Positions 32,844-58,939 of a DNA stretch of 64,000 nucleotides are shown piece by piece. Below the pieces are notes generated by a model. It did not search any database. It saw only the letters and a list, made by a program, of their open reading frames with translations, and had not been told where the DNA came from. Each line of letters opens with the position of its first letter. The first letter of the stretch is position 1. This DNA comes from an uncultured Bacilli bacterium (GTDB lineage Bacteria; Bacillota_I; Bacilli_A; RF39; UBA660). A program made the translations under genes and the position numbers. The stretch is taken from positions 116,771-180,770 of the forward strand of contig CASTSB010000002.1 of the NCBI GenBank assembly GCA_949451605.1, given 5' to 3'.

Positions 32844-33614
32844 ATGAAAGAAGATAAATTAGCTATAAAAAAGAAAATTAAATTATATGAAAAACTAGGA
32901 GCAAGAAACTTTCAATCCTTTGTTTTCAAAATAGAAGATATTAAATGGAAAGTTATAAAAAAAGTGTTTCCTAACTATCTTAAATTTGTTGATAAAATGA
33001 TTGATAAAAAGACTATTAAATTCCTCAAACGAGCCAAAACGGAAGACATAAAAGATAAAATTAAAATGATTACTAAAATAGAAAAAATGAAGTCAAGAAA
33101 AGAATATAATAGAACTGAAAATATTAATTATCATATAAGTAAAAGTAATCCAACAGATTTTCTATATTATTTAAACTGGAACAAATCTATTCATAAAAAA
33201 GGACTAATAAAGGATTTAATCTTACTACCAATTACAATAATAGCTATAACAAATAGTGCTGCAATAGCAATACCATTAGTAATCTATAACTTAAGCAGTT
33301 TATTCATTAATTTTCAATGTATAAACTTACAAAATTATAATATTTCTAGAATTTCTTTAATAAAAGAAAAACTTGAAAAACAAGAAAAGAAAAAAATTGA
33401 GAATGACATATCCAATTATGGTGATGCTATTAATTTAGTAAGTAATACTATAAAAGATAAAGAAAATATCCCTACAATCGAAGATATAGTAAATAATATC
33501 AAAACAAAAGCGCAGGCTGAACAATTAAAGCAACTTATTTTAAGAGAAAAACTAGAAAGAGAAAATAATAAAAAAAATATAAAAGGAGGAAAACAATATG
33601 GCATTAATAGATAA
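32844..33614 (+). CDS. membrane protein, possibly glycosyl-4,4'-diaponeurosporenoate acyltransferase-like family
   Basis: 256 aa. N-terminal K.KLYEKLGARNFQSFVFKIEDIKWKVIKK resembles that family. One or two predicted TM helices. The assignment is tentative. Confidence 0.4.
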   Translation: MKEDKLAIKKKIKLYEKLGARNFQSFVFKIEDIKWKVIKKVFPNYLKFVDKMIDKKTIKFLKRAKTEDIKDKIKMITKIEKMKSRKEYNRTENINYHISKSNPTDFLYYLNWNKSIHKKGLIKDLILLPITIIAITNSAAIAIPLVIYNLSSLFINFQCINLQNYNISRISLIKEKLEKQEKKKIENDISNYGDAINLVSNTIKDKENIPTIEDIVNNIKTKAQAEQLKQLILREKLERENNKKNIKGGKQYGINR

Positions 33615-33912
33615 TATAGCATTATATTTTGCAGGAACAACACTTACAGGTAGTGCTGTAAAAGCAATATCTTATATATCAGAGGATAATGAGCCACATC
33701 CAGATAGGGTTAAGAAAGTGGGAATAACAACAACAGTAACAGGAGCAACATTAACAACAATTGCATCTCACTCATTCACAAGACATGCAAGCTATAATGA
33801 AACACATGCTTATATTGAATCATTAAGTGATGAAGAGTTGGCATCCCTATCAGAAATGTTAGAAATAAATGATAATAATATTGATACTGGCAAAAAAGTA
33901 AAAAGATTATAG
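33598..33912 (+). CDS. small protein, paralog 2 (C-terminal AYIESLSDEELASLSE motif)
   Basis: RBS aaaggagga upstream. Carries the conserved C-terminal motif. Confidence 0.5.
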   Translation: MALIDNIALYFAGTTLTGSAVKAISYISEDNEPHPDRVKKVGITTTVTGATLTTIASHSFTRHASYNETHAYIESLSDEELASLSEMLEINDNNIDTGKKVKRL

Positions 33913-33921
33913 GAGATAATT

Positions 33922-34233
33922 ATGGAAGAATTATTTACACTAGGGTTTGCATTATCAAATACATTTGCTGCAGAGGCAATTTTAATTGAACCAGATGATG
34001 AACTAAATGATCATATTCCTATGATTTCTACAATATTTACAGTTGCTAGCATAGACATTACTGTAATAGGTAAGGAATTTATTATTCCTGAAGTTCAAAA
34101 AATGAAAGCAACTTCAGCTTATGTAGAGTCTCTTAGTGATGAGCAATTAACCACTTTATCTGACGTTTTAAACTCAAAAAGCTTACAACTTGAAAATGAT
34201 AATCCTAAAATACTATCTAAAAAGTTAAAATAG
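33922..34233 (+). CDS. small protein, paralog 3 (C-terminal AYVESLSDEQLTTLSD motif)
   Basis: RBS taggag upstream. Carries the conserved C-terminal motif. Confidence 0.5.
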   Translation: MEELFTLGFALSNTFAAEAILIEPDDELNDHIPMISTIFTVASIDITVIGKEFIIPEVQKMKATSAYVESLSDEQLTTLSDVLNSKSLQLENDNPKILSKKLK

Positions 34234-34363: not shown

Positions 34364-34795
34364 ATGAATAGTTATATGCAAAAAAAAGAAACTGTAGAAC
34401 GTAAATGGTATGTTATCGATGCTGAAGGAAAATCTTTAGGTCGTGTTGCATCACTTGCAGCTACATACTTACGTGGAAAAAACAAACCAACTTATACTCC
34501 ACATATTGATTGCGGAGATAACATCATTATTATTAATGCTAAAAAAGTTAACTTAACTGGTAACAAATTAAATGATAAGATGTATTATAATCACTCAATG
34601 TATACTGGCGGATTAAGAGAAAGAAACGCTAAAACAATGAGAGAAGAATATCCAGAAGAAATGATGGAAAGAGCTGTAAAAGGTATGCTTCCACATAATA
34701 GACTTGGAAGACAAATGTACAAAAAATTATTTGTATATGCAGGAAATGAACATAAACATGAAGCACAAAAACCAGAAGTGCTTGAAGTTAAGTAG
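34364..34795 (+). CDS. rplM: 50S ribosomal protein L13
   Basis: [19 protein letters not shown] matches L13. Confidence 0.93.
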
Positions 34796-34808
34796 GAGGG
34801 TTTAAGTT

Positions 34809-35228
34809 ATGGCAAAAGAAAAAAAATATACTGGAACTGGACATAGAAAAACAAGTGTTGCTCGTGTAACATTAACTCCAGGTACTGGAAAAATTACTGT
34901 TAATGGACAAGACGTTCATGATTACTTACCTTTCGAAGTATTAGTTATGGATTTATGTCAACCATTAGATATCACTAACACTAGAGAAATGTTTGATGTT
35001 GATGCTAAAGTTAGTGGTGGTGGATTCCAAGGACAAACAGGAGCTATTAGATTAGGTATCACTAGAGCTTTATTAGCTTATGATGCTTCAACTCCTGCAG
35101 ATTCTGAAAATAGCTATAGAAAAGTTCTTAAAGCAGCTGGATTTATAACTAGAGATTCACGTAAGAAAGAACGTAAGAAACCAGGATTAAAGAAAGCACG
35201 TCGTGCTCCACAATTCTCAAAACGTTAA
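34809..35228 (+). CDS. rpsI: 30S ribosomal protein S9
   Basis: The C-terminus [12 protein letters not shown] matches S9. Confidence 0.93.
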
Positions 35229-35247: not shown

Positions 35248-35278
35248 AAAGATCGAAATTATCGATCTTTTTTTTGTT
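35248..35278 (+). terminator. rho-independent terminator
   Basis: aaagatcga-aatta-tcgatcttt hairpin followed by tttttt. Confidence 0.65.
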
Positions 35279-35344: not shown

Positions 35345-35596
35345 ATGGAAGATACTTTGATCAAGAATATTGAAAAAATACATACTACAAAAATGGGAAT
35401 AGAACGAATCAAAAGGAATCTTAACTTACAAACTAATGGCGTAGTAGAATATTGTAAAGAAAAAATACTAAATAAAAATTGTAAAATATATAAAGAAGGT
35501 AAAAATTGGTATTGTGAAATAGATAATATAAAGATAACAGTTAATTCTTATAGCTATACTATTATTACTGCACATCTATTAACAAAGGAGAATTAA
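35345..35596 (+). CDS. DUF3781-like small protein
   Basis: KIHTTKMGIERIKRNLNL...KNWYCE resembles DUF3781 family members. Confidence 0.45.
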   Translation: MEDTLIKNIEKIHTTKMGIERIKRNLNLQTNGVVEYCKEKILNKNCKIYKEGKNWYCEIDNIKITVNSYSYTIITAHLLTKEN

Positions 35597-35598
35597 AA

Positions 35599-36024
35599 AT
35601 GAAAAATGTTTTATCATCTTTAATTTTATATATAATAGCGTACACTGTTGTAACAATTATAGGAATGTTACATACTATTTTTAATATCGTAGTTTTAAAA
35701 ATGAAATCAATGAAAGATAGCACAGGAATGGGAGAAGGTTATGAAAAGACTAAACCTTGGCATCCATTGTATAATATAATAATATTTCCTCTATTTGCAT
35801 TTCTATATTTAAATGGATTAGAAGGCTTAGTCTTAGCTAATGTAATAGCATTATCACTATTATGGGGAACAATAACCATAATTATAGATTTAATTGGCTG
35901 GGTCTTAATAAAACATCCTTGGTCATTAACATTTAAAGAATTTTATGTCGATTATCAACCTTGGATAACACTAATATATCTAACAATATATGCAAGTCCA
36001 TTTATAGCTTACTTTTTTATTTAA
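35599..36024 (+). CDS. hypothetical membrane protein (about 4 TM)
   Basis: Hydrophobic segments are present. No recognisable motif. Confidence 0.45.
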   Translation: MKNVLSSLILYIIAYTVVTIIGMLHTIFNIVVLKMKSMKDSTGMGEGYEKTKPWHPLYNIIIFPLFAFLYLNGLEGLVLANVIALSLLWGTITIIIDLIGWVLIKHPWSLTFKEFYVDYQPWITLIYLTIYASPFIAYFFI

Positions 36025-36103
36025 AGATTAAATCATTGTTTAACAATGATTTTTTTTGTCTCTATTTAAGGTTATAAAGAATAAAATATTACAAGGAGGT
36101 TTT

Positions 36104-36442
36104 ATGTTAAGTTTAAGTTATTTAAAAGAATATATAATGGTTTCAATCGCATTAAGTACAGTAACATGTGCATTTATTCAAAAGACAAAAGGTTTAATTA
36201 AACCAAAATCTTTAATTATTTGGTACTCATTTTTTGTAAATATTTTATTTAGTATAATCTTTTGCCAATCATTTACCAAAATTAATTTTCCTGATAGCTT
36301 ATGGACAGGATTGTTTTCCTTCATAGGCGCAGATACTTTATATAAATCTCTTGAAGGTAAATTATCATCTTATACTGAAATAAGAAGCTCAAAAGAAGTA
36401 GGTATAAAAAAGGAAAATATTCTTAATAAAAAGGAGGGTTAA
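36104..36442 (+). CDS. small membrane protein (holin-like topology)
   Basis: 113 aa from ATG 36104, which follows RBS aaggagg. Two or three TM segments followed by a charged C-terminus. Confidence 0.4.
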   Translation: MLSLSYLKEYIMVSIALSTVTCAFIQKTKGLIKPKSLIIWYSFFVNILFSIIFCQSFTKINFPDSLWTGLFSFIGADTLYKSLEGKLSSYTEIRSSKEVGIKKENILNKKEG

Positions 36443-36443
36443 A

Positions 36444-37127
36444 ATGGAAAAGCCAATTTTTCCTAGTAAATATATGAGGATTACTCAAGGGTATGATGAA
36501 GGTACTCATAAATCATCTTTTGCAATAGACAATGCAGATAAAGATTCAGGCATTAGTGATATATACGCTCCATTTACTGGAATTATTAAAAAGATTTACC
36601 AAAATGATGCTAACGAAGTATGGCTAGAAAGTCTTGAAAAAGTTGAATATCCAGATGGAACTAAAGATTATATGACAATTTTATTTGCTCATAATAATGA
36701 CGTTTCTAACTTATTTGTAGGTAAAAAAATAAATCAAAATGAAGCATTTTATAAAGAGGGTACTAAAGGTAATGCTAGCGGAAATCATTGTCATATAGAA
36801 TGTGGACAAGGTAAATTTAATGGAACTGGCTGGCATAAGAATGCGGCAGGATATTACAGTATAAATAATAGTAAAAGACCAGAAGAATGTTTATGGTTAG
36901 ATGATTCTATAAAGATTTTAGATAGTCACAATTATAGTTGGAAAAGAATAGAAAAATCCACAGAACCTGTGGAAAAAGAAGAAAAACCACCTGTTAAAGA
37001 AGAAGATAATAAAAATCCAGAAAAAGATGAAGAAAAAGAGTATCCAAAAAAATTTAAATATGTTTGTGAAAAAGATGATCTTTATGGAATTTATTTAAAA
37101 AAAGGTGAAACTTTGTATTTAGAATAG
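36444..37127 (+). CDS. M23-like metallopeptidase-domain protein without signal peptide, with Lys/Glu-rich C-terminal tail
   Basis: GNASGNHCHIE matches the M23 motif-2 pattern (compare LytM GNSTAPHVHFQ). Upstream THKSSFAIDNAD may be a divergent HxxxD. No N-terminal hydrophobic segment. Confidence 0.4.
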   Translation: MEKPIFPSKYMRITQGYDEGTHKSSFAIDNADKDSGISDIYAPFTGIIKKIYQNDANEVWLESLEKVEYPDGTKDYMTILFAHNNDVSNLFVGKKINQNEAFYKEGTKGNASGNHCHIECGQGKFNGTGWHKNAAGYYSINNSKRPEECLWLDDSIKILDSHNYSWKRIEKSTEPVEKEEKPPVKEEDNKNPEKDEEKEYPKKFKYVCEKDDLYGIYLKKGETLYLE

Positions 37128-37200
37128 TTTAAATATATTGTAAAAAATATAAAAAAAAGATATAATTACCTTAGAATAGATAAACTGGGGTGATTTACAT

Positions 37201-40200
37201 ATGATAGTCAGGCTAATTAAAAAAAGTAAAATTATAAATTTTAATTTACCTACTACTGTATCAGGTAATTATTGGATTACCGATACTGACTATTTAGGAA
37301 ACACCAGAAATCTTATAAATGTAGAAGAATCCGATGGCAAATGGAAAATAAAAAGTGATTTTGAAACTAAAATAATGGCTGGTTCTAGAGAAATAGAATC
37401 AGCATTTCTTAGTGATTATAGTATGTTCTTTTTAAAAATAAATACAGATAACGAATATGTAATTTTATATTGCTCCCCTAATGCGGATAAAAGCATCACC
37501 ACTTTACAAGCAAGTGATAATACAGATTACATAATAGGTAATGATGGAAAGGCCTCAATCAGTTATTTAAACCCTTTAGTATCAAAACAACATGCTAAGT
37601 TAACTCTATCAAATGGTGTATGGTCCATTTTAGATTTAAGTAGCAAATATGGTACTTATGTTAATAATAATGCTGTATTACAACAAACTTTAGAGTTTGG
37701 TGATATAATTTTCATTTTAGGTTTAAGAATTATTATTATGAATAAAACTATAATAATAAATAATATAGGTAATTATGTTTCATTTGATTCAAGTGTTTTT
37801 AAGAAAATGATGCCTATTGTTCAAAAACAAACTTCACAAGATAATCCAGATGAAGAACAAATCGAATTTTTTAAAGAAGATGATTATTTTTATCGTGCAC
37901 CAAGATTTAAAACTAAGATAGAAGATGTTGATATAACTATAGATCCACCTCCAGGTAAGGAAGCAGAAGATGATACTCCAGCTATTTTATCAGTAGGTCC
38001 AATGCTTACAATGGGAATGGTTTCAGGATCAACTGCATTTACCACACTAAATAGCGTTCTAAATGGTAGTATGGATCTTAGCAATGCATATCCAAGTCTT
38101 TTAATGTCAGGTGGAATGCTTGCAACAATGCTTTTGTGGCCAATAATTAATAAAAAATATCAAGCATATAGACATAAGAAAAAAGAAGAATTAAGGCAAT
38201 CAAAATATACAGAATACATTGAGGAAAAAAGATTAAAAATACAATCAGAAATGAAGATTCAAAGACAAATTTTAATCGACAATTATCTTCCAGTTACGCA
38301 AACTAAAGAAATAATTTATAGTAAAAAAAGAAACTTATGGGAACGTGAGTTAGATCAAGATGATTTTTTAGATTTACGATTAGGAATAGGTTCTACTAAT
38401 TTAAAAGGTAAGATAAATTTTCCACAATCACATTTTGCTTTAGAAACTGATAATCTATTAGAACAAGTTTACAAATTAGGTGCAGAATCAACTATGCTTG
38501 AAAATGTACCTATATCTCTTTCCTTCTTAAAAAATAGAATCACAGCTATTATTGGGTCAGCAAGTATAAAAAATCAATTTATAGATGCTTTAGTACTACA
38601 GATGATTACATATCATAGTTACGAAGATTTAAAAATTGTAATAATGACTGATGAAAAAAACGAAAATCGTTGGGAATACTTAAAAATAGTTCCTCATTGT
38701 TGGAATAATGAGAAACAACAAAGATATTTTGTAACAAATTTAGATGAAGCAAAAGAGCTTTCACTTGCCCTAGAGCAACAGATTCAAGCAAGAAGAAATA
38801 AGGAAACAAATGGAAAAATAGAAAAATCTACATTAGATTATCATCATTACAAACCTTACTACATGATAATAACAGATAATTATAAAATGTATCGTGATGT
38901 TGAATTAATTAAAGATATTGCTGAAATGGATATAAACTATGGATTTAGTTTAATGGTGGTAAGTCCAAGATTAATAAATATTCCTAATGAATGTAAAACT
39001 TTTATTAGTATTGGAGATAAAAAGTCAGGAATATTTGAAAATGAATTAGTTTCTAATAAGCAAAAGGAATTTGCTGCTGATTATGATCCAACATTGAACA
39101 TGTATGAATGCTGTAAAATATTAGCTAATATTCCTATTGATATTGCAAAAGAAGATCAAAATTTACCAGCTAGTTTGTCATTTTTGGAAATGTATAACGT
39201 TGGAATGGTAGAACAATTAAATATTCAAAATAGATGGAAAACAAATGACCCAACTAAATCTCTTCAAGCACCTGTTGGTCTTGATAGGCAACATGAACTA
39301 TTCAAACTAGATCTTCATGAAAAATTTCATGGACCACATGGTTTAGTAGCAGGTATGACTGGTTCAGGTAAATCTGAATTTATAATTAGTTACATAGTTT
39401 CTATGGCTATAAACTATCACCCTTATGAAGTATCATTTGTTTTAATTGACTATAAAGGTGGAGGATTAGCAGGAGTATTTCAAAATAAAGAAACTGGAAT
39501 GAAACTTCCACATCTTGCAGGTACTATTACCAATTTAGATACTGTTGAAATGAATCGATCTTTAGCGTCTATTCAAAGTGAGTTAAGAAAACGTCAAAGA
39601 ATTTTTAATGAGGCAAGAGACAAATTAAATGAAAGTACAATTGATATTTATAAATATCAAGGATTATATAGAAAAGGTTTAGTAGATAAACCAGTTTCTC
39701 ATTTATTTATTATTTCTGATGAATTTGCAGAATTAAAAGCTCAAAGACCTGAGTTTATGGATCAACTTATTTCTACTGCACGTATCGGACGTTCTTTAGG
39801 TGTTCACTTAATCCTTGCCACTCAAAAACCAAATGGAGTAGTAAACGATCAAATTTGGTCTAATACTAAATTTAGAGTCTGTTTAAAAGTTCAAGATAAA
39901 TCTGACAGTATGGATATGATAAAAGTTCCAGATGCAGCTTCTTTAAAAAACCCAGGAAGATTTTATTTACAAGTAGGTTACAATGAATTATTTGCACTAG
40001 GACAAGCCGCTTGGGCTGGAGCACAATACTTTCCAACAGAAAAAAGAAAGAAAAAAATTGATCAGTCTATAAGTATCTTAGATAATATAGGTAATACAAT
40101 TAAGTCTTTAGATACTAAACAAAATGAAGTAACAGTTGAATCCAAAGGTGAAGAAATAACTAATATTGTAAAATACATTGTTAATGAAGCTAGTATTGCT

Positions 40201-41787
40201 AATATCTCTATTGACCAATTATGGCTTGATAGAATCCCAGACATCATATTTGTTGAGAATTTAAGAAAAAAATATAATTATGTAATTGAAAAGAATAATA
40301 TAAATCCAATTATAGGAGAATATGATGATCCTGATAATCAAAGACAAGCTCTATTAACATTACCTCTATCAAAAGAGGGAAATACCATCATATTTGGTTC
40401 AGCTGGTAGTGGAAAAGAACTAATGATATCAAGTATTATATATTCAACTATCACAACACATGATTCAAGTGAAGTTAATTTTTATATAATAGACTGTGGA
40501 GCAGAAACTTTATCAGTATTTAAACAAGCCCCACATGTCGGAGAAATATTACTAGTAAATGAAAAAGAAAAAATAGAAAATTTATTTAAAATGATTCTTC
40601 AAACTATTGAAGTTAGAAAAAAAATCTTAGTTGATTACAATGGTTCATATGACTTTTATGTTAATCATGGAGGAAAGGATATGCCTCTTCTTACAATAGT
40701 AATTAATAATGCAGAAGCTTTTTTTGAAAATTATAATGACTATGAAGATGCTATTTCTCAACTAACCAGAGACTGTTTAAAATATGGAGTTATCTTTATT
40801 TTAAGTACAAATGGTCCAAATACATTAAGATACAAAGTAAAACAAAACTTTAGTCAAAATGTTGTTTTACAATTCAATGATCCTTCAGACTATATTTCTG
40901 TAATACCTGGTGTAAGAAAGAAAGAGCCATCTAAAATCTTTGGTAGAGGATTAATGCTTTTAGATAATATTTATGAATTTCAAACTGCTTATCCATATAA
41001 ACAAGATTTAATGACTGATTATATAAAAATAGTTTGTAAAAAGCTTAAAAATATATGTAGTTACCAAGCTAAAAAGATTCCAGTTTTACCTGAAGTCGTA
41101 ACTCTTAATGAAGTAGAAGAATATCTTGGTAATGAAACAACTCTACCAGTTGGTATAGAAAAAGAATCTTTAGATATTTCAACTATTAACTTAAATGAAA
41201 ATATTATGTTTAATATAACAGGAGAAGACATAACTGCAGAACCTGATTTCTTATTTGGAGTAATCAAGTCTGCTTGTAAAATAGCTTCTTCAAGTGTATT
41301 TGTGCTTGACACTCAAGATATTTTAGAAGATATTGATAAAGGTAATATTGATAATTTAGTTTATCAATCAGGAGATGTAAGTCAAGCTTTAGAATCTCTT
41401 GCAGTAACTATTAATACAAACATTGATAATGGTACTTCTAATCCTATAATATGTATGTTAATAGGGCCTATGAATTTTATGAATAAAGCTGAAGAAGCAC
41501 AAAAAAATCAATTCAATTCTATAGTTGAAGTCTCAACACAACAAACAAATATCAAATTTATTATGGTTGAAACAATTAATAACATCAAGACAATAGCCTT
41601 TGAACCATGGTACAAGAATAATACAGACCTATCAGAAGGTGTTTGGATTGGAAATGGAATAGGAAACCAATTTACTCTAAAAGTTACAACAGCCGCAAGA
41701 ATTTTACGAACAGAAATAGAACCAAACTTTGGTTACACTATTCATAAAGGTAAAGCGAAATTAATTAAACTAATTTCAGGAAAATAG
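37201..41787 (+). CDS. essC: type VII secretion system FtsK/SpoIIIE-family ATPase EssC/YukB-like
   Basis: 1528 aa. Two N-terminal FHA-like modules, two TM helices (about aa 255-315), and three P-loop ATPase domains (D1 Walker A GMTGSGKSE, D2 GSAGSGKE, a degenerate D3). Confidence 0.8.
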   Translation: MIVRLIKKSKIINFNLPTTVSGNYWITDTDYLGNTRNLINVEESDGKWKIKSDFETKIMAGSREIESAFLSDYSMFFLKINTDNEYVILYCSPNADKSITTLQASDNTDYIIGNDGKASISYLNPLVSKQHAKLTLSNGVWSILDLSSKYGTYVNNNAVLQQTLEFGDIIFILGLRIIIMNKTIIINNIGNYVSFDSSVFKKMMPIVQKQTSQDNPDEEQIEFFKEDDYFYRAPRFKTKIEDVDITIDPPPGKEAEDDTPAILSVGPMLTMGMVSGSTAFTTLNSVLNGSMDLSNAYPSLLMSGGMLATMLLWPIINKKYQAYRHKKKEELRQSKYTEYIEEKRLKIQSEMKIQRQILIDNYLPVTQTKEIIYSKKRNLWERELDQDDFLDLRLGIGSTNLKGKINFPQSHFALETDNLLEQVYKLGAESTMLENVPISLSFLKNRITAIIGSASIKNQFIDALVLQMITYHSYEDLKIVIMTDEKNENRWEYLKIVPHCWNNEKQQRYFVTNLDEAKELSLALEQQIQARRNKETNGKIEKSTLDYHHYKPYYMIITDNYKMYRDVELIKDIAEMDINYGFSLMVVSPRLINIPNECKTFISIGDKKSGIFENELVSNKQKEFAADYDPTLNMYECCKILANIPIDIAKEDQNLPASLSFLEMYNVGMVEQLNIQNRWKTNDPTKSLQAPVGLDRQHELFKLDLHEKFHGPHGLVAGMTGSGKSEFIISYIVSMAINYHPYEVSFVLIDYKGGGLAGVFQNKETGMKLPHLAGTITNLDTVEMNRSLASIQSELRKRQRIFNEARDKLNESTIDIYKYQGLYRKGLVDKPVSHLFIISDEFAELKAQRPEFMDQLISTARIGRSLGVHLILATQKPNGVVNDQIWSNTKFRVCLKVQDKSDSMDMIKVPDAASLKNPGRFYLQVGYNELFALGQAAWAGAQYFPTEKRKKKIDQSISILDNIGNTIKSLDTKQNEVTVESKGEEITNIVKYIVNEASIANISIDQLWLDRIPDIIFVENLRKKYNYVIEKNNINPIIGEYDDPDNQRQALLTLPLSKEGNTIIFGSAGSGKELMISSIIYSTITTHDSSEVNFYIIDCGAETLSVFKQAPHVGEILLVNEKEKIENLFKMILQTIEVRKKILVDYNGSYDFYVNHGGKDMPLLTIVINNAEAFFENYNDYEDAISQLTRDCLKYGVIFILSTNGPNTLRYKVKQNFSQNVVLQFNDPSDYISVIPGVRKKEPSKIFGRGLMLLDNIYEFQTAYPYKQDLMTDYIKIVCKKLKNICSYQAKKIPVLPEVVTLNEVEEYLGNETTLPVGIEKESLDISTINLNENIMFNITGEDITAEPDFLFGVIKSACKIASSSVFVLDTQDILEDIDKGNIDNLVYQSGDVSQALESLAVTINTNIDNGTSNPIICMLIGPMNFMNKAEEAQKNQFNSIVEVSTQQTNIKFIMVETINNIKTIAFEPWYKNNTDLSEGVWIGNGIGNQFTLKVTTAARILRTEIEPNFGYTIHKGKAKLIKLISGK

Positions 41788-41796
41788 GAGGTATAT

Positions 41797-42051
41797 ATGA
41801 ATAATAAAATATTAATAGAACTAGATATTCCTTTAATAGAAAAGTCTTATGATTTATACATTCCTATCAATAAAAAAGTCGGAACAATAAAAAAGTTAAT
41901 TGAAGAAGAATTAGTATCTCTAACAGAGGGTGCATACATTTTATCAGATTCTACTAATCTTTATAGTAAAGAAACAGGAGATATTTATGATATAAATAAA
42001 ACTGTTAGGGATACAGATTTAAAAAATGGTTCAAGAATTATTCTACTATAG
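41797..42051 (+). CDS. esaB: EsaB/YukD-like ubiquitin-fold T7SS protein
   Basis: 84 aa immediately downstream of essC. KILIELDIPL...YDLYIP...GSRIILL is a YukD-like pattern. Confidence 0.65.
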   Translation: MNNKILIELDIPLIEKSYDLYIPINKKVGTIKKLIEEELVSLTEGAYILSDSTNLYSKETGDIYDINKTVRDTDLKNGSRIILL

Positions 42052-42060
42052 GAGGTATTT

Positions 42061-42291
42061 ATGTCAGATTATAATAAATATGTTTTAGCAATCAATAAAA
42101 TATTTGAAGTATTAAATAACTGCAAACAAAAATGGAAAGACAATGATAATTTAACTAAAATTGCTGACTTAGAAGAATATCGCAATATAGTAATTAATGC
42201 AGCAAACTCTTTTTCTAATTCAAATAAATCTGAAAATATCACAGAGCAAGACGATATGAAACAAATAAATAATTTAGAAGGTGCAAAATGA
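42061..42291 (+). CDS. small helical protein (candidate T7SS-associated)
   Basis: 76 aa with RBS taggaggt upstream. No WXG motif. Confidence 0.4.
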   Translation: MSDYNKYVLAINKIFEVLNNCKQKWKDNDNLTKIADLEEYRNIVINAANSFSNSNKSENITEQDDMKQINNLEGAK

Positions 42292-42515
42292 TAGATCAAA
42301 TAAGCTATGATGAGATGGAAAGCTATTCAAAAGAACTTGAAGCAAGTGCAGATGCATTAAAAGCTTTAATAGAAGAAAAAGATTTAAAAGAATTAGAAAA
42401 TTTTGTTGATTCCGTATACAATTATTCAGAATATCTATCATCAACTGTAGAATTACATAAGACTGCAGATGAAGCACTAAACTATTTAGAAAGCAACAAA
42501 AGAACTTCCAATTAA
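42288..42515 (+). CDS. small helical protein (candidate T7SS-associated)
   Basis: 75 aa. Overlaps the upstream ORF by 4 nt (ATGA). Confidence 0.4.
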   Translation: MIDQISYDEMESYSKELEASADALKALIEEKDLKELENFVDSVYNYSEYLSSTVELHKTADEALNYLESNKRTSN

Positions 42516-43582
42516 GGAAGTTCTTTTATATATTTATTTAATTTTAGTTTAGGAAAATAATAATTTAATATATTTTGAAAACTTATTCCATCTTTTGAAA
42601 GTTCATTTGCTCCAAATAAACTTAAGCCTAGAAAGTTTCCAAATCCAAAGCTAATTATTCTAATAAAATTATTATAAAAAATAATGTTAAAGTTTAAAGA
42701 TTTCAAGGAAAGTAGTTGCCTAAATTCTTCCCCAGCAAAATTTTTATTATTAATTACTAAATTCATTATAGAACCATTACTATCAAAATCGGTAATCAAG
42801 CATTTACTATTAGATGTAACATTAATTCCTAACATTTTAGAAATCTCTTCATAATTAAAATCTAAAACTTCTTTAGAATTTGAAGAGGAAAGATCCCATA
42901 GACTACTAACGCTAGATAAATAAGGATAAATAGTATTTTCAAATGTCCTTCCATTATTATTAAAATGGATAAATGGTAAAATAAATTCATTTTCATAACT
43001 TAAAAACATACTATCTGTCACATCTATTATTTTATTAAGTCTAGAAACTATTAAAGTATAATCATTTAACCATAAACCCTTATATAAACTTATATCTTTA
43101 TATTGAAAAAATTTATTTGTATTTTCTAAATATTTATTTTCCTTCATCATTTTATAAGCATAAGTTCTATAAAGAATTGAAATGCATTTCATAGTTTCAT
43201 CTTCCATAGTTGGATTATAAATAGATGCCAATATTCCTAATAAATATTTTTTTAAATTTACTTCAATAAAGGATCCATCTTCTAATTTTATATTTAAAAG
43301 ATAGTCTTCATTAGAATAAGAAGGATTACTTTTAGGAGTTGGTTTACTTTTACTTAAGTCTAAGGTTTTTACAGCAATCCCATCAATAATTAAAAAGACT
43401 TTATTTCCATTAAATTTTATTTCGTTATTTATTATAAAATTTTTAGTTCTTCTTGTAAGTTCATCTTGAGAATTCTTAATAGCTAATTCTTTAGAATATT
43501 CACTTCTCATATCTAAATATAGATAAAGGACATCTTCAGTACCATTATTCTTTATTTCATATCTATAAAACATTATCTTCAC
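42512..43582 (-). CDS. SpoIID/LytB-domain protein
   Basis: KKYLLGILASIY....MKCISILYRTYAYK matches the SpoIID motif E.YL.GVV..E....EALKAQAVAARTYA. No N-terminal TM helix. Confidence 0.5.
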   Translation of the reverse strand: MKIMFYRYEIKNNGTEDVLYLYLDMRSEYSKELAIKNSQDELTRRTKNFIINNEIKFNGNKVFLIIDGIAVKTLDLSKSKPTPKSNPSYSNEDYLLNIKLEDGSFIEVNLKKYLLGILASIYNPTMEDETMKCISILYRTYAYKMMKENKYLENTNKFFQYKDISLYKGLWLNDYTLIVSRLNKIIDVTDSMFLSYENEFILPFIHFNNNGRTFENTIYPYLSSVSSLWDLSSSNSKEVLDFNYEEISKMLGINVTSNSKCLITDFDSNGSIMNLVINNKNFAGEEFRQLLSLKSLNFNIIFYNNFIRIISFGFGNFLGLSLFGANELSKDGISFQNILNYYFPKLKLNKYIKELP

Positions 43583-44704: not shown

Positions 44705-45652
44705 ATGATAGAGAAAAAATTCAAGAATTTAGATGAGCAAATTGAAATATTTAAATCAAAAGACCTAATTATCAATGATGAAAAATATGTAAAAGAGATC
44801 TTACTAAGAGAAAATTATTTCTTTATCAATGGTTATAGGCACTTATTCATGAAATCAAAGAAGGATAGGCAATTCATTCATGGAACAACATTTGAAGAAT
44901 TATACAGCTTATTTTTATTTGATAGATCATTTAGAAATATTTTGTTTAAATACTTACTAGTAATCGAAAATAACTTAAAATCAATTACATCTTACCAATT
45001 ATCTAGAAAATATGGATATCGTGAAAGTGATTATTTGAGAGCTAAAAACTTTACACAAGCACCAGATAAACAAAGGCAAATTAATGACCTACTTAGAAAA
45101 ATGAAAAGACAAATAAGAATTAATGGTTCACAACATAGCGCAACTCACCATTATGTATCAAATTATGGATATATTCCTTTGTGGATACTAGTTAAAGTTT
45201 TATCGTTTGGAATAGTAAGTGAAATGTTTTCAATTTTAAAATCTGAAGACCAAAAAGAAATAGCAGAAGTTTATGATATTGAAGTAGATGCTTTAGAGAC
45301 TTATTTACCAATTCTTGCAAATTATAGAAACTTATGTGCACATGAAGATATTTTATATGAAAATAGAACTCAAAAGGAAATAAATAATACTGTATATCAT
45401 CAATTATTAAAAATACCAAAAGAAAATGATGAATATATTCAAGGTAAAAACGATGTTTTTGCTTTAATTATCATTTTAAAACAAATGTTAACTCATGAAG
45501 ATTTTAAAAATATGACATTGGAGCTAGATAATGTTATTCAAACGCTTAATTATAATTTAAATACTATTAAAATAGATATAATTTTAGAAAGAATGGGCTT
45601 CCCATTAAATTGGAAGGAATTAGCAAAAATCGAAAGGAGTGTTGATGAATAA
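44705..45652 (+). CDS. abortive-infection protein, Abi_2 (AbiD/AbiF) family, HEPN-type
   Basis: The N-terminus FKNLDEQIEIFKSKDLIINDEKYVKEILLRENYFFINGY matches Abi_2. HEPN Rx4H motif YRNLCAHED. Confidence 0.7.
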   Translation: MIEKKFKNLDEQIEIFKSKDLIINDEKYVKEILLRENYFFINGYRHLFMKSKKDRQFIHGTTFEELYSLFLFDRSFRNILFKYLLVIENNLKSITSYQLSRKYGYRESDYLRAKNFTQAPDKQRQINDLLRKMKRQIRINGSQHSATHHYVSNYGYIPLWILVKVLSFGIVSEMFSILKSEDQKEIAEVYDIEVDALETYLPILANYRNLCAHEDILYENRTQKEINNTVYHQLLKIPKENDEYIQGKNDVFALIIILKQMLTHEDFKNMTLELDNVIQTLNYNLNTIKIDIILERMGFPLNWKELAKIERSVDE

Positions 45653-50499: not shown

Positions 50500-50608
50500 A
50501 GTTTTATCCACAAATCCTGTGGATATTTTATTTTAAATAATGACATTTATTATAAACAAAAAAGAACCATTAGGTTCTTTTAATCATATCTTATAATAGG
50601 TGATTTAT

Positions 50609-50887
50609 ATGAATAATTTAGTTGGAGTAATAGTAGACGCTGGACATGGTGGAAATGACCCAGGTGCTGTAGCTGGAAATTTAAAAGAAAAAGATTTAAC
50701 CTTAAAAGCATCAAAATATATGTATGACAGATTAAGAGAATTAGGAATAGATGCAGAGCTTACAAGAGATTCAGATACTTCTCTTCCAAAATCAGAAAGA
50801 ATTAAAAAAGTATTAAGTTTATACAATAATAATCCTAATGTAATTTTAGTTGCTAATCATATTAACGCAGGTGGTCAGGACACGTAA
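50609..50887 (+). pseudogene. N-acetylmuramoyl-L-alanine amidase (Amidase_3, CwlC/endolysin-like), 5' part of a gene split by element insertion
   Basis: MNNLVGVIVDAGHGGNDPGAVAGNLKEKDLTLK...VANHINAGG, then QDT-stop read from element DNA. It continues in frame at 63873. Confidence 0.7.
50869..50874. repeat. attL core (aggtgg) of the integrated element
   Basis: The same hexamer occurs at 63872-63877. Joining the two flanks restores ...HINAGG/EGAEIVY. Confidence 0.5.
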
Positions 50888-51564: not shown

Positions 51565-51751
51565 TCCATAGTACCTTTACGGTTATATGGATTTCCGTAT
51601 TCGGTTTTACATGTAGAATAGATAATAAAAAATAAAGTAATAAAACTAATAGTTAAAGATGTTAAAGGAAAAATGAAACAAATTAATAAGAAAAAATAAA
51701 TTTATTATGAAAAAATATGATATAATTATTATGGAAGTGTAGGTGGTAAAA

Positions 51752-52627
51752 ATGAAGAAAAAACAAAATTTATTGTTACAACCAGTTTTAAAATGGGCTG
51801 GAGGGAAAAGACAATTAATTCCTCAGTTGGAAAAATTTTTTCCAAAAAAATTTACTACCTATTATGAACCTTTTATAGGTGGAGGAGCAGTATTATTCCA
51901 TTTACAACCATCAAAGGCAGTAATTAACGATTTCAACGAGGATTTAATAAATTGCTATAGGTGTATAAAAGATAATTTGGATGAACTGATAGAAAAATTA
52001 AAATATTATGAGGCAAAAAATGATTCAGAGAGTTATTATGAAATAAGAGCTATTGATAGGACTGAAGAATATAAAAGTTGGAGTCCAGTAGAACGAGCAG
52101 CAAGGTTAATATATTTAAATAGAACATGTTATAACGGTTTGTTTAGAATGAATAGTGCTGGTCAATTTAATTCTCCATTTGGGTCTTACAAAAATCCTTG
52201 TATATGTAATGAACCTGTCTTAAGAGCAATAAATAAATATTTTAATGAAAATGAAATAGAGTTTAGATCAGGAGATTTTTATGATGCATGTATTGATGCT
52301 CCAAAGGGATCATTTATATATTTAGATCCTCCTTACGATCAATATGATGAACAAGTTAATTTTGTTGGTTATACAAAAAATGGTTTTTCAAGAACTGATC
52401 AAGAGCGTTTAAAGAATATGTGTGATGAATTAATTGAGCGTGGATGCTATATTATGGTAAGCAATTCAAAAACTCCTTTTATTGTTAATTTATATAGTGA
52501 TACAACAAAATATATAACTTATACAATTAATACGGTGAATGCAAGGAGAAATATAAATAGTAATGCTCAAAAGCGTGGTGAAGTTGAGGAGGTTTTGATT
52601 ATTGGAAAATTGGATATCAAAGAATAA
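51752..52627 (+). CDS. Dam-family N6-adenine DNA methyltransferase (D12 class)
   Basis: LKWAGGKRQL, EPFIGGGAV, DPPY and NRTCYNGL motifs. ATG 51752 follows RBS aggtgg. Confidence 0.85.
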   Translation: MKKKQNLLLQPVLKWAGGKRQLIPQLEKFFPKKFTTYYEPFIGGGAVLFHLQPSKAVINDFNEDLINCYRCIKDNLDELIEKLKYYEAKNDSESYYEIRAIDRTEEYKSWSPVERAARLIYLNRTCYNGLFRMNSAGQFNSPFGSYKNPCICNEPVLRAINKYFNENEIEFRSGDFYDACIDAPKGSFIYLDPPYDQYDEQVNFVGYTKNGFSRTDQERLKNMCDELIERGCYIMVSNSKTPFIVNLYSDTTKYITYTINTVNARRNINSNAQKRGEVEEVLIIGKLDIKE

Positions 52628-53900
52628 TAAAGCATGGAATGAACTGTTTGAAAGATTTAATATTATTAATGCAATAGAAGGAAATGGTTTTTTTGAAATT
52701 ACTGCTGATCAAATTAAAGAATCAGGAAGAGAGCCAAGATTAATGACTAAGTTTGATAGCAGTGAAAATTTACCAACAATTTTTGCAGAAAATAACCTAG
52801 CAATATTGCCAATTAAACGTGGCTCATATATTATAGGAAAATTTCAAAATTATCAAACTGTTGAATTAAATAATGATTTAGATGTTGAAACTAAATATTT
52901 ACCAGATTATATTTCAACTATTGATTACAGTAATATTCCAAGTGAAGCAATATCGTTAAATTCTGCATATATCTCTGGAATGATTGAAGATATTGTTGGA
53001 GAAGAAGTTGTACCTACTATACAAGGAAGAATGGGAACTGGTGAATTCAATTATCAAATATCATTAAAAGATAATAATAAATTTGATGTAAGTGTTCAAA
53101 ATTCTCAAATGGAAATAGACGGTAGTTATGAGGGAATAAGTAAATTTGTAATATTCGAAGCAAAAAATCATTACATGAAAGATTTCATAATAAGGCAATT
53201 ATATTATCCGTATAAAGTTTGGAAAAAAGTTACGCATAAAGAAATAATTCCAATTATGTTAATTAAGCATGATAATATATTTAATTTTTTTATCTATGAA
53301 TTTTTAGATGAAAATAATTATAATAGTATAAGATTAAAGAAAATCAAAAGATATATTTTAGATGAAATATATAATCCAATCGAAGTTGTTGACATACAAA
53401 ATATTATGAATCAAGTTGAATTTGTTAAAGAAGATAATGTCCCTTTTCCACAAGCAAATTCTTTTTATAGAGTTTTAGATTTAATCAATGAATTAAATAA
53501 TCAAGAATTATCTGCAAGTGATATTGCAGACATTTATGAATTTGATATTAGACAAGCAAATTATTATTTAGCTGCTGCACAATATTTAGGCTTAGTTGTG
53601 AAAGATAAAAACTACAAATTATCTGATCATGGAAAAAGTATAATGCAAATGAACCATAAAAATAAGAATTTAGCAATTATTAGTATTATTTTATCTCACA
53701 AACCTTTTTACTGTGCACTTGAGCAATATTTAACAAATTTTGAATTTGATTATTCAGAAATAGCAAAAGTTATTTATGAAAATAGAGATGAAATCAATTC
53801 AACTGGAACGGCAGAAAGAAGAACAAGTACTGTAATTGCTTGGGTTAAATGGATTATGGAATTAACAACTGTTTTTGAAAGAAATCCTTTTGATGAATAG
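52602..53900 (+). CDS. putative restriction endonuclease partner of the Dam-family methyltransferase
   Basis: 432 aa. Overlaps the MTase 3' end by 26 nt. No motif recognised. The assignment rests on its context. Confidence 0.4.
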   Translation: MENWISKNNKAWNELFERFNIINAIEGNGFFEITADQIKESGREPRLMTKFDSSENLPTIFAENNLAILPIKRGSYIIGKFQNYQTVELNNDLDVETKYLPDYISTIDYSNIPSEAISLNSAYISGMIEDIVGEEVVPTIQGRMGTGEFNYQISLKDNNKFDVSVQNSQMEIDGSYEGISKFVIFEAKNHYMKDFIIRQLYYPYKVWKKVTHKEIIPIMLIKHDNIFNFFIYEFLDENNYNSIRLKKIKRYILDEIYNPIEVVDIQNIMNQVEFVKEDNVPFPQANSFYRVLDLINELNNQELSASDIADIYEFDIRQANYYLAAAQYLGLVVKDKNYKLSDHGKSIMQMNHKNKNLAIISIILSHKPFYCALEQYLTNFEFDYSEIAKVIYENRDEINSTGTAERRTSTVIAWVKWIMELTTVFERNPFDE

Positions 53901-54025
53901 AATATTAAATGGAGAAAGAAACTCCATTTTTATTTTAGTTCTTTATAATAATTGCAAAATATTTTAAAAATATTTTGCAATTATTATTTATTTGTGATAT
54001 TATATAGTTGATTTTGGAGGTGTCT

Positions 54026-54244: not shown

Positions 54245-54254
54245 GTGTAGTAAG

Positions 54255-57078: not shown

Positions 57079-57079
57079 T

Positions 57080-57904: not shown

Positions 57905-57917
57905 GGAATAATTTCTA

Positions 57918-58925: not shown

Positions 58926-58939
58926 TAAAAGGTGATAAA

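What the first reader, a model, noticed from the sequence alone, without database searches (positions are those of the whole stretch)
35345..42515. Minimal type VIIb-like secretion locus: EssC + EsaB without EssB/EsaA/WXG100, preceded by an M23-like hydrolase with no signal peptide
A same-strand block follows the rpsI terminator. It runs DUF3781 protein, two small membrane proteins, a 227-aa M23-like protein, a 1528-aa FHA-FHA-TM-3xATPase EssC, an 84-aa YukD/EsaB-like ubiquitin-fold protein, and two overlapping 75-aa helical proteins. Canonical Firmicutes T7SSb components are not encoded here: EssB, EsaA, EssA and a recognisable WXG100 EsxA are all missing. The M23-like protein has the Zn-binding motif GNASGNHCHIE and no export signal. 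It has a Lys/Glu-rich tail and sits directly upstream of essC. It could be the system's peptidoglycan-remodelling factor, analogous to S. aureus EssH, or a secreted substrate. The holin-like membrane protein plus M23 pair could alternatively be a phage lysis-cassette remnant.
Basis: partly seen in the sequence, partly recalled or inferred. Interest (0 to 1): 0.6.

Follow-up and report, generated by a model that had tools for sequence, protein, structure and literature searches.

The report
Four-gene type VII secretion operon
An uncultured gut Bacilli lineage carries a compact type VII secretion operon of one ATPase, one ubiquitin-like protein and two half-sized WXG100 proteins; the neighbouring M23 hydrolase belongs to a separate phage-type holin–endolysin pair.

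Summary
All the genes exist as described. EssC is a genuine T7SSb-type ATPase (TIGR03928, 1001 bits). The 84-aa protein has a ubiquitin fold like EsaB/YukD (AlphaFold pLDDT 92).

The two ~75-aa proteins are miniaturised WXG100 paralogs that Pfam misses.
- The h76 family profile reaches Pfam-positive WXG100 proteins at E about 3e-5 among 1.8 billion sequences.
- h75 matches the partner WXG100 family at hhalign 96.5% (E 9e-10), with the hairpin tip deleted.

So the locus holds the universal T7SS triad. It has its own conserved promoter. The gene order is kept in 53 species, and the Ubl adjoins EssC in 66 of 66. No EssB, EsaA or EssA homolog was recognised, and no other conserved gene family accompanies the module, in the up to 10 kb held on each side.

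The M23 protein is half of a phage-type holin–endolysin pair that is inherited independently.
- Only 14 of 32 species have it, always with the holin.
- In all 14 it is separated from essC by unrelated genes, at least one on the opposite strand.
- Its adjacency here is lineage-specific.

Verdict: this is a compact T7SS variant, a new variant of a known kind. The M23–T7SS link is not supported. Whether other membrane components lie elsewhere in the genome could not be tested.

The parts
35248..35270 (.). Bidirectional terminator-like hairpin after rpsI; left boundary of the variable rpsI-essC interval
   Evidence: 9-bp stem with T-run on both strands.
35345..35596 (+). DUF3781 protein (83 aa); filler gene of the variable interval, not part of either module
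   Evidence: Pfam PF12636 5.6e-31. No homolog next to EssC in the 67 genome loci L001-L067.
35599..36024 (+). 141-aa polytopic membrane protein of unknown family; specific to this species at this position
   Evidence: Several TM-like segments. No Pfam, NCBIfam or PHROG hit. No homolog in L001-L067.
36104..36442 (+). Holin-family small membrane protein (112 aa from ATG 36104; the ORF opens at TTG 36056)
   Evidence: 23/23 orthologs hit PHROG holin phrog_1299 (best 2.1e-7) and 7 also hit phrog_19617. Invariant C..QKTK, W.G, G.D..Y. Present in 23/32 species that span rpsI-essC.
36444..37127 (+). M23/LytM-type endolysin-like peptidase (227 aa): catalytic domain 1-168, Pro/Glu/Lys linker, conserved ~25-aa C-terminal module; no export signal
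   Evidence: PHROG endolysin phrog_9066 1.3e-14. PDB 3csq phi29 gp13 C-terminal domain 3.8e-6. C. innocuum phage Amboise endolysin 35%, 7e-22. H22, D29, H83, H115, H117 invariant in 16 orthologs plus the phage enzyme. Starts 1 nt after the holin stop.
37138..37166 (+). Conserved sigma-A-type promoter of the T7SS operon (TTGTAA, 17 nt, TATAAT), followed by TAGAATAG and the SD GGGGTGA
   Evidence: scan. In the alignment of 17 species both hexamers are invariant whatever gene lies upstream. Sequence read.
37201..41787 (+). EssC/TsxC: FHA-bearing membrane FtsK/SpoIIIE-type T7SS ATPase (1528 aa)
   Evidence: TIGR03928 1e-300, 1000.7 bits against cutoff 778.4. Pfam FHA 2.5e-11 and FtsK_SpoIIIE 1.5e-39. 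B. subtilis YukB 9qks 2.3e-120. Walker A GMTGSGKS at 718, Walker B at 835, degenerate D2 GSAGSGKE.
41797..42051 (+). TsxB/EsaB/YukD-like ubiquitin-fold protein (84 aa, no C-terminal Gly-Gly)
   Evidence: AF2 pLDDT 92.4, beta-grasp topology. Foldseek top hits are all ubiquitin-like, including the EccD5 Ubl domain of ESX-5. Weak YukD Pfam hits in 4/37 family members. Adjoins EssC in 66/66 loci.
42061..42291 (+). h76: miniaturised WXG100 paralog A (hairpin 3-53 with W25 at the turn, disordered linker, conserved C-terminal LG-type motif)
   Evidence: Family profile hits Pfam-positive WXG100 proteins at E 3.4e-5 to 5.4e-4 in 1.84e9 proteins. Shared GW.(G/S).DN.NYI motif. AF2 helix-turn-helix model, pLDDT 67.
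42288..42515 (+). h75: miniaturised WXG100 paralog B (hairpin tip, including W-x-G, deleted)
   Evidence: hhalign against the second genes of tandem WXG100 pairs: 96.5%, E 9.4e-10, with a 27-aa gap at the tip. Control with h76 is null. Against sister-clade WXG100: E 8.6e-5. In the decoy control the WXG100a profile hit 21 real h75 orthologs and none of their reversed copies.
42498..42527 (.). Bidirectional terminator shared by the T7SS operon and the convergent SpoIID-like gene
   Evidence: 12-14 bp stem. Sequence read.
42512..43582 (-). Convergent SpoIID/LytB-domain protein without export signal; conserved neighbour, not shown to be part of the system
   Evidence: TIGR02870 7e-35 (below cutoff) and Pfam SpoIID 5.8e-7. 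Present in 34 close-clade loci. 33/34 orthologs lack any hydrophobic N-terminus.

Best explanation
The interval holds two independent modules that happen to abut in this species.

Module 1 (37138-42527) is a self-contained four-gene type VII secretion operon. Its parts, in order, are a conserved promoter, essC, a ubiquitin-fold EsaB/YukD-type gene, two translationally coupled miniaturised WXG100 paralogs, and a terminator.

Inferred mechanism:
- EssC multimerises in the membrane through its two TM helices and powers export with its D1 ATPase.
- The Ubl binds the EssC cytoplasmic N-terminal region, as YukD does on YukB.
- h76 and h75 form a half-length antiparallel four-helix bundle that is the core TsxA-type substrate and activator.
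- h76 has lost the termini-proximal parts of the hairpin and h75 has lost the tip. In an antiparallel dimer these deletions remove the same end of the bundle.
- h76 carries a tethered, conserved C-terminal motif that could dock on EssC like the EsxB tail.
- No EssB, EsaA or EssA accompanies the module in any of 66 related genomes. It is therefore either a naturally minimal T7SS or uses unlinked partners.

Module 2 (36104-37127) is a phage-derived holin plus a signal-less M23/LytM endolysin with intact catalytic residues. It is vertically retained just downstream of rpsI in part of the clade. The holin presumably lets the enzyme reach the wall, for autolysis, mother-cell lysis or non-lytic release. 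It is not a T7SS component.
For: Shown:
- EssC identity.
- Ubl fold. The Ubl adjoins EssC in 66/66 loci.
- h76 is homologous to WXG100.
- h75 is homologous to WXG100 with the tip deleted, and the control is null.
- The WXG100 intermediates are the first genes of tandem WXG100 pairs, matching the h76-then-h75 order.
- Sister-clade loci have EssC, Ubl and two Pfam-scored WXG100 (33.1 and 26.8 bits, cutoff 27.3) in the same positions.
- Tight coupling: 9-nt gaps with GGAGG sites and an ATGA overlap.
- An invariant promoter lies upstream of essC in 17 species with six different upstream neighbours.
- A terminator follows h75.
- No other conserved gene family accompanies the module in the up to 10 kb held on each side.

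Module 2:
- Holin family hits in 23/23 members.
- Endolysin and phi29 gp13 homology.
- Invariant catalytic residues.
- Counts: 23 holin, 14 M23 (always with the holin), 9 neither, out of 32 species.
- In all 14, M23 lies 848-7963 nt from essC with at least one opposite-strand gene between.
- The closest relatives (81-83% EssC identity) keep the holin but lack M23.
- Holin copies paired with M23 carry an extra ENIINKEE tail.

Literature:
- TsxA, TsxB and TsxC are the near-universal T7SS core (PMC11217815).
- YukD binds the YukB FHA region (PMC12637312).
Against: - Genome-wide absence of EssB, EsaA, EssA, LXG substrates or other partners could not be tested.
- Pfam does not call YukD or WXG100 on the window proteins themselves. 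Membership rests on profile-level remote homology and a predicted fold.
- The h76 model has only moderate confidence (pLDDT 67), and Foldseek found no match.
- The h76-h75 heterodimer, the co-truncation geometry and the role of the C-terminal motif are inferences; no complex could be modelled.
- FHA domains in T7SSb dock EssB, so their retention here hints at an unidentified partner.
- In this window and in L005, M23 directly precedes essC with no terminator between them. Read-through co-expression cannot be excluded in these species.
- All genomes are MAGs.
Confidence: 0.7

Rival explanations
1. One reading: the signal-less M23 protein is the system's dedicated peptidoglycan-remodelling factor (an EssH analogue) or a T7SS substrate.
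For: - It lies directly upstream of essC on the same strand, with a 73-nt gap and no terminator.
- The same adjacency occurs in L005.
- It has no signal peptide.
- A wall hydrolase (M23 or a CwlD-like amidase) is found somewhere upstream of essC in 29/42 loci.
Against: - It is present in only 14/32 species. The closest relatives lack it yet keep the intact T7SS operon.
- It is always coupled to a holin, which already explains export.
- In all 14 it is separated from essC by at least one opposite-strand gene.
- essC has its own invariant promoter.
- It has no helical LXG/WXG-type targeting domain; its architecture is catalytic domain, linker and small C-terminal module, like phage endolysins.
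- EssH is a Sec-secreted CHAP enzyme needed to thread EsaA through the wall (PMC13059805), and there is no EsaA here.
- The amidase's best match is CwlD, below cutoff. From my knowledge of B. subtilis gene order, cwlD lies just downstream of rplM-rpsI, so its position here looks like inherited synteny.
Confidence: 0.08
2. The four genes are only the visible part of an ordinary T7SSb. EssB, EsaA and EssA (and substrates) are encoded elsewhere in the genome, so nothing about the system is minimal.
For: - EssC scores as a T7SSb equivalog and keeps FHA domains. In T7SSb these dock the EssB pseudokinase (PMC12637312).
- Only up to 10 kb on each side was inspected.
Against: - No such gene lies near essC in any of 66 species-level loci, although flanks vary widely.
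- Described T7SS variants keep their core genes clustered (PMC11217815).
- Several described variants lack EssB, EsaA and EssA altogether (PMC11217815).
- The WXG100 proteins have been co-miniaturised, which suggests a remodelled apparatus.
Confidence: 0.2
3. The holin-M23 pair is a decaying prophage lysis-cassette remnant with no present function.
For: - Both proteins belong to phage families.
- Presence is patchy: 14 to 23 of 32 species.
Against: - Catalytic residues are invariant and the holin motifs are strongly conserved across species at 62-83% EssC identity.
- The pair occupies a fixed chromosomal position after rpsI with no phage genes nearby.
- The holin persists alone in 9 species, with a correlated change in its C-terminal tail.
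Confidence: 0.07
4. The EssC module is a non-functional relic, or serves DNA translocation or sporulation rather than protein secretion.
For: - It has an FtsK/SpoIIIE ATPase core.
- It is flanked by sporulation-type genes: a CwlD-like amidase in relatives and a SpoIID-like gene.
Against: - The EssC equivalog score is above cutoff, and the DNA translocase FtsK model scores only 56 bits against a cutoff of 1566.
- The D1 Walker motifs are intact.
- The Ubl and WXG100-derived partners are strictly co-conserved.
- The promoter is conserved.
Confidence: 0.04

Closest known systems
T7SSb (S. aureus Ess, B. subtilis Yuk)
   Same: - The EssC-type ATPase has an N-terminal FHA domain, TM helices and FtsK-like ATPase domains (TIGR03928 above cutoff; best PDB match YukB).
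- It is accompanied by a free ubiquitin-fold EsaB/YukD-type protein and WXG100-family proteins.
   Different: - No EssB/YukC, EsaA/YueB or EssA/YueC in the locus or in 66 related loci.
- It has two non-identical WXG100 derivatives instead of one EsxA homodimer.
- Both are about 75 aa instead of about 100 aa and lack the G of W-x-G or the whole tip.
- There is no adjacent LXG toxin or immunity genes.
T7SSg and other reduced variants T7SSc-j (Garrett, Higginson & Palmer 2024, PMC11217815)
   Same: - The core is reduced to TsxA (two paralogs in T7SSg and T7SSe), TsxB (Ubl) and TsxC (ATPase).
- No EssB, EsaA or EssA.
   Different: - TsgC lacks FHA domains and T7SSg has the beta-propeller TsgL and adjacent Tad genes. 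Here EssC has FHA and no such gene is conserved nearby.
- T7SSf has FHA but also a PPM phosphatase, TsfJ and TsfV, none of which is seen here.
- That survey used RefSeq, whereas this clade is known here only from MAGs and metagenome contigs.
- No phylogenetic placement against those subtypes was possible.
Mycobacterial EsxA-EsxB (ESAT-6/CFP-10) heterodimer of T7SSa
   Same: - Two adjacent, co-translated WXG100 paralogs are expected to form an antiparallel four-helix bundle.
- One partner carries a flexible C-terminal tail that acts as the signal for the EccC ATPase.
   Different: - The helices here are about half as long.
- One partner lost its termini-proximal segments and the other lost its tip.
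- The tail motif ((V/L)E(A/V)LG(N/E)(D/W)) is unrelated in sequence.
- Pairing and signal function are inferred, not shown.
Phage holin-endolysin cassettes and domesticated versions (C. difficile TcdE/TcdL, PMC11344133)
   Same: - A small holin-family membrane protein is followed immediately by a signal-less wall hydrolase.
- The pair sits in the chromosome without other phage genes, as in domesticated release systems.
   Different: - The enzyme is an M23/LytM-type peptidase like the phi29 gp13 C-terminal domain, not a muramidase or amidase.
- No cargo gene is obvious.
- The holin persists without the enzyme in nine species.
- The function is untested.
S. aureus EssH
   Same: A cell-wall hydrolase gene next to a T7SS locus.
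   Different: - EssH is a Sec-secreted CHAP enzyme that co-purifies with the apparatus and is needed for EsaA to cross the wall (PMC13059805).
- The M23 protein here has another fold, no signal peptide, its own holin and no conserved linkage to essC.
- There is no EsaA.

Membership tests
T7SSb (Ess/Yuk system) | EssC: membrane FtsK/SpoIIIE-type ATPase with N-terminal FHA domain(s) | tested here: met
   TIGR03928 1000.7 bits against cutoff 778.4. Pfam FHA 2.5e-11 and FtsK_SpoIIIE. YukB 2.3e-120. FHA2 confirmed against PDB FHA domains. FHA1 gives only a weak signal.
T7SSb (Ess/Yuk system) | EsaB/YukD: small free ubiquitin-fold protein without C-terminal Gly-Gly | tested here: met
   Fold: AF2 pLDDT 92.4, with ubiquitin-like top hits including the EccD5 Ubl domain. 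The protein ends ...RIILL. Sequence-level YukD match is only sub-threshold, in 4/37 family members. Adjoins EssC in 66/66 loci.
T7SSb (Ess/Yuk system) | EssB/YukC pseudokinase membrane protein | tested here: not met
   No match among the window proteins scanned. No additional conserved gene family in the up to 10 kb held on each side of 66 loci. The rest of the genome could not be searched.
T7SSb (Ess/Yuk system) | EsaA/YueB large polytopic wall-spanning protein, and EssA/YueC | tested here: not met
   Same scans as for EssB. The only large neighbours are housekeeping genes. Genome-wide status was not testable.
Generic T7SS core (TsxA/TsxB/TsxC of PMC11217815) | ATPase plus Ubl plus WXG100-family hairpin protein(s) encoded together | tested here: met
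   EssC. Ubl. h76 and h75 as WXG100 relatives. One operon with its own promoter and terminator.
WXG100 (PF06013) | About 100-aa helix-turn-helix with W-x-G at the turn, scoring above the Pfam threshold | tested here: not met
   No Pfam WXG100 hit for any of 35 h75 or 34 h76 orthologs. Lengths are 60-76 aa. h76 has W-x-(S/N/D), and h75 lacks the tip entirely.
WXG100 (PF06013) | Homology to bona fide WXG100 proteins | tested here: met
   The h76 profile reaches P0378, P0385 and P0399 at E 3.4e-5 to 5.4e-4 in 1.84e9 proteins. All three are Pfam WXG100 above cutoff. The h75 profile matches their partner genes at hhalign 96.5%, E 9.4e-10. Negative control. Decoy control.
T7SSg (PMC11217815) | ATPase without FHA domains; TsgL beta-propeller; adjacent Tad pilus genes | tested here: not met
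   EssC here has FHA. No conserved extra gene family lies near essC.
T7SSf (PMC11217815) | FHA-ATPase plus PPM phosphatase TsfF, DUF6382-FHA protein TsfJ and AAA+ TsfV | tested here: not met
   None of these domains is found in window neighbours or as conserved families in related loci. EssC phylogeny against TsfC was not tested.
Phage-type holin-endolysin pair | Small holin-family membrane protein immediately upstream of a signal-less wall hydrolase | tested here: met
   Holin PHROG hits in 23/23 members. Endolysin PHROG 1.3e-14 and phage Amboise endolysin 7e-22. 1-nt spacing. No hydrophobic segment in M23. M23 never occurs without the holin.
Phage-type holin-endolysin pair | Located within a prophage or phage genome | tested here: not met
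   Neighbours are rpsI, ZupT, CwlD-like and metabolic genes. The position is fixed across species.
Peptidase M23 / LytM | Zn ligands and catalytic His (H..D and HxH motifs) and the family HMM | tested here: inconclusive
   Pfam M23 scores only 15.9 bits against cutoff 28.7. The protein does align to the LytM-like domain of phi29 gp13 (3csq, 3.8e-6), with HKSSFAID and HCH matching gp13 HKGTLCID and HWH. These residues are invariant in all orthologs.
EssH-type T7SS-dedicated hydrolase | Sec signal peptide, CHAP domain, conserved linkage to and requirement for the T7SS (EsaA insertion) | tested here: not met
   No signal peptide. M23 fold, not CHAP. Linkage is not conserved. No EsaA. Functional dependence is not testable here.

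The most novel reading that the evidence does not exclude
This clade runs a truly minimal type VII secretion system. EssC plus one ubiquitin-like protein would form the whole translocon with no other dedicated membrane component. Its core WXG100 pair would have been co-truncated to a half-length four-helix bundle, with one partner losing its ends and the other its tip. One partner would carry a tethered C-terminal docking motif. This would be a natural lower bound for T7SS composition.
Probability: 0.35. Interest if true: 0.75.

Novelty: new variant of a known kind. Interest (0 to 1): 0.55.

Why it matters
What forms the T7SSb channel, and which accessory proteins are really required, are still open questions. 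The 2024 survey of T7SS variants showed that only the ATPase, a Ubl and a WXG100 protein are near-universal.

A four-gene operon holding exactly these parts, conserved across 53 gut species, is a ready-made candidate for heterologous reconstitution of a minimal T7SS. It has its own promoter and no conserved partner genes nearby.

The 60-76-aa WXG100 derivatives show that core T7SS substrates can fall below the detection limit of Pfam. Surveys that call a locus 'WXG100-less' may therefore be wrong for that reason (T7SSi is a possible example).

The complementary truncations also give a testable prediction about antiparallel pairing.

Separately, a vertically conserved holin–M23 pair and a signal-less SpoIID-like protein point to unconventional export of wall enzymes in these uncultured Bacilli.

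Tried and rejected
- HMMER profiles of the Ubl, h75 and h76 families against all PDB sequences gave no YukD or WXG100 hit.
- Pfam on every member of the h75 and h76 families gave no WXG100.
- hhalign of h76 against either sister-clade WXG100 paralog was not significant. The same was true of h75 against paralog b.
- I suspected that long h76-family members were natural h76-h75 fusions. They are not: they are the hairpin plus a long disordered linker plus the same C-terminal motif.
- tblastn of the holin against phage genomes found nothing. The protein upstream of the phage Amboise endolysin is unrelated to it.
- I considered the amidase directly upstream of essC in 13 loci as a T7SS hydrolase. 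I rejected this because its best match is CwlD, and cwlD is rpsI-linked in Bacillus (my own knowledge).
- A profile built from the N-termini of the sister-clade giant proteins hit window ORF 56170-57078 (E 3.3e-5 in a 199-ORF set). I did not pursue it: it lies in a distant island and the sequence is low-complexity and AT-rich.
- Literature searches found no prior description of this arrangement.

Full report
**Context.** The window is 27% GC chromosomal DNA. It carries the S10-spc-alpha ribosomal operons and rplM-rpsI at 34364-35228. EssC relatives were found in 67 species-level genomes, all of them MAGs labelled uncultured Bacilli, Erysipelotrichaceae, 'Mollicutes' or Candidatus Faecimonas (Bacilli incertae sedis). 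Metagenome contigs identical to the window also exist.

**Observation.**
- DUF3781 is confirmed (5.6e-31).
- EssC scores 1000.7 bits on the EssC equivalog model TIGR03928 (cutoff 778.4).
- EssC also has Pfam FHA at residues 110-170 (2.5e-11) and FtsK_SpoIIIE.
- Its best solved relative is B. subtilis YukB (2.3e-120).
- It has an intact D1 Walker A/B and a degenerate D2.
- The second FHA domain matches solved FHA domains. It lacks the canonical Arg and Asn of the phosphothreonine pocket.
- The first ~98 residues show only a weak repeat signal against FHA2.

**The 84-aa protein.** It has no Pfam hit. An AlphaFold model from 33 homologs is confident (pLDDT 92.4) and has beta-grasp topology. The top Foldseek hits listed are nearly all ubiquitin-like proteins, including the Ubl domain of EccD5 in the ESX-5 T7SS. 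Four of 37 family members give sub-threshold full-length YukD hits. The protein ends without Gly-Gly and adjoins EssC in 66 of 66 loci.

**The two ~75-aa proteins.** Pfam, NCBIfam, PHROGs and PDB profile searches do not recognise them. Three lines of evidence show they are WXG100 derivatives.
- *Position.* In sister-clade loci (EssC 42-44% identical) the order is EssC, Ubl, then two 100-aa proteins with literal W-x-G that Pfam scores as WXG100 (33.1 and 26.8 bits, cutoff 27.3).
- *h76.* The family profile was searched against 1.84 billion representatives and finds only 154 proteins. The tail of that list holds three ~100-aa proteins (E 3.4e-5 to 5.4e-4) that Pfam calls WXG100 above threshold (30-38 bits). 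The alignment shares GW.(G/S).DN.(N/A)(Y/F)(I/V), with h76 W25 in the W-x-G position. h76 lacks the first ~20 and last ~25 residues of the hairpin. Its AlphaFold model is helix 3-24, turn W25-D27, helix 28-53, then disorder (pLDDT 67).
- *h75.* Those three WXG100 proteins are each the first gene of a tandem pair. The second genes match the h75 family at hhalign probability 96.5% (E 9.4e-10). A 27-residue gap removes exactly the hairpin tip. The h76 control is null. Reciprocal local HMM searches with reversed decoys agree.

Longer h76-family members keep the hairpin and insert up to ~150 disordered Pro/Gln/Glu-rich residues. All end in the same (V/L)E(A/V)LG(N/E)(D/W) motif.

*Inference.* In an antiparallel WXG100 dimer (my knowledge of ESAT-6/CFP-10), deleting the ends of one partner and the tip of the other shortens the same end of the bundle. 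The conserved tethered tail could act as the ATPase-docking signal.

**Operon structure.**
- essC to the Ubl gene, and the Ubl gene to h76, are each separated by 9 nt containing a GGAGG site. h76 and h75 overlap by ATGA.
- A TTGTAA-17-TATAAT promoter at 37138-37166 and a GGGGTGA Shine-Dalgarno site are invariant in 17 species. This holds whether the upstream gene is M23, the holin, reverse-strand ZupT, the CwlD-like amidase, rpsI or an acyl-CoA ligase.
- A bidirectional terminator closes the operon.
- Clustering all neighbours within the up to 10 kb held on each side of 66 loci shows no further family that travels with EssC and the Ubl, apart from housekeeping synteny.
- No EssB, EsaA or EssA signature was found.

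**The M23 protein and its partner.**
- M23 matches a PHROG endolysin family (1.3e-14).
- It matches the LytM-like C-terminal domain of phi29 gp13 (3csq, 3.8e-6).
- It matches the annotated endolysin of a [Clostridium] innocuum phage (35% identity, 7e-22) and a gut microvirus protein (41%, 3e-26).
- H22, D29, H83, H115 and H117 are invariant in 16 chromosomal orthologs. The Lys/Glu-rich 'tail' is a variable linker to a conserved ~25-aa C-terminal module.
- All 23 orthologs of the upstream membrane protein hit a PHROG holin family.

Of 32 species that span the whole rpsI-essC interval:
- 23 have the holin, 14 have M23 (never without the holin), and 9 have neither.
- In all 14, M23 lies 848-7963 nt from essC, with at least one opposite-strand gene between (usually ZupT).
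- The closest relatives (81-83% EssC identity) have the holin directly upstream of essC and no M23.
- Only this species and L005 have M23 abutting essC.
- Holin copies paired with M23 carry an extra ENIINKEE tail.

The pair is therefore a conserved, intact, phage-derived lysis-type module. It is inherited independently of the T7SS operon.

**Comparison with known systems.** Garrett et al. 2024 (PMC11217815) describe T7SSc-j and note that TsxA, TsxB and TsxC are the near-universal core. None of their variants combines an FHA-bearing ATPase with only a Ubl and two WXG100-type genes. YukD binds the YukB FHA region and promotes YukC binding (PMC12637312). EssH is needed for EsaA to cross the wall (PMC13059805), and neither EssB/YukC nor EsaA is present here. 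Literature searches found no description of this arrangement.

**Limits.** I could not search whole genomes of the clade, so unlinked partners and substrates remain possible. No heterodimer model could be run. All functional statements are inferences from homology, synteny and predicted structure.

Noticed in passing
window 42512-43582 (-): The SpoIID/LytB-domain protein convergent with the T7SS operon has no signal peptide or TM segment. 33 of 34 orthologs likewise begin MFYRYEIKNNG.EDILYLYL with no hydrophobic N-terminus. This is unusual for a SpoIID-type wall enzyme, and how it would reach the wall is unexplained.
   Followed up: partly
L022:9206-9886, L024:9256-9939 and 11 other loci; window 50600-50887: In 13 of 42 relatives a CwlD-like spore-cortex amidase (TIGR02883, 184-203 bits, just below cutoff) sits directly upstream of essC. 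This window lacks it there and has only a 95-aa Amidase_3/CwlD-like fragment 9 kb downstream.
   Followed up: partly
window 36104-36442 and orthologs (alignment A7): Holin orthologs that are followed by M23 carry a conserved C-terminal 'T(I/V)S.ENIINKEE' extension. The nine species that keep the holin without M23 have a short tail. This correlated change suggests a holin-enzyme contact, or a second M23-independent role for the holin.
   Followed up: partly
window 37172-37179 and alignment A12: A conserved (A)TAGAATAG element lies between the -10 hexamer and the Shine-Dalgarno site of essC in nearly all 17 species aligned. It could be a leader or operator element.
   Followed up: no
L054:15835-24393, L056:15836-23977, L058:15812-21754, L066:15803-21919: Sister-clade T7SS loci end in giant proteins of 1,980-2,852 aa, preceded by a 130-145-aa helical protein. 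The one scanned (L054) has no Pfam hit. These are candidate very large T7SS substrates. A 217-aa protein with a C-terminal WXG100 domain sits upstream of essC there.
   Followed up: partly
window 44705-45652 (+): An Abi_2 ('abortive infection') family protein (Pfam 2.5e-43) is conserved at the same position, about 2.9 kb downstream of essC, in 43 of 53 close-clade loci. That is unusually stable for a defence-type gene.
   Followed up: no
H1/H2: MG641182.1 2478-2993: The closest phage-database relative of the M23 catalytic domain (41% identity, 3e-26) is a hypothetical protein of a 5.5-kb gut microvirus from moose faeces. Related M23 lysins thus occur in ssDNA phages as well as in tailed phages.
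   Followed up: no
window 33598-33912 and 33922-34233 (+); 32844-33614: Two tandem ~104-aa paralogs share a C-terminal AY(I/V)ESLSDE(E/Q)L motif. They follow a 256-aa membrane protein between truA and rplM. None has a family hit, and the 256-aa protein is conserved in many relatives.
   Followed up: no
window 51743-63765: The 3' end of the window looks like a defence or mobile island. It includes an HTH protein and several large unannotated ORFs. A profile of the sister-clade giant-protein N-termini weakly hit ORF 56170-57078 (E 3.3e-5 in a 199-ORF set).
   Followed up: no
P0258, P0268-P0274, P0298 (h76 family): Some h76-family proteins insert 60-150 residues of Pro/Gln/Glu-rich disordered sequence between the hairpin and the conserved C-terminal motif. 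Linker length appears to be free while both ends are constrained.
   Followed up: partly
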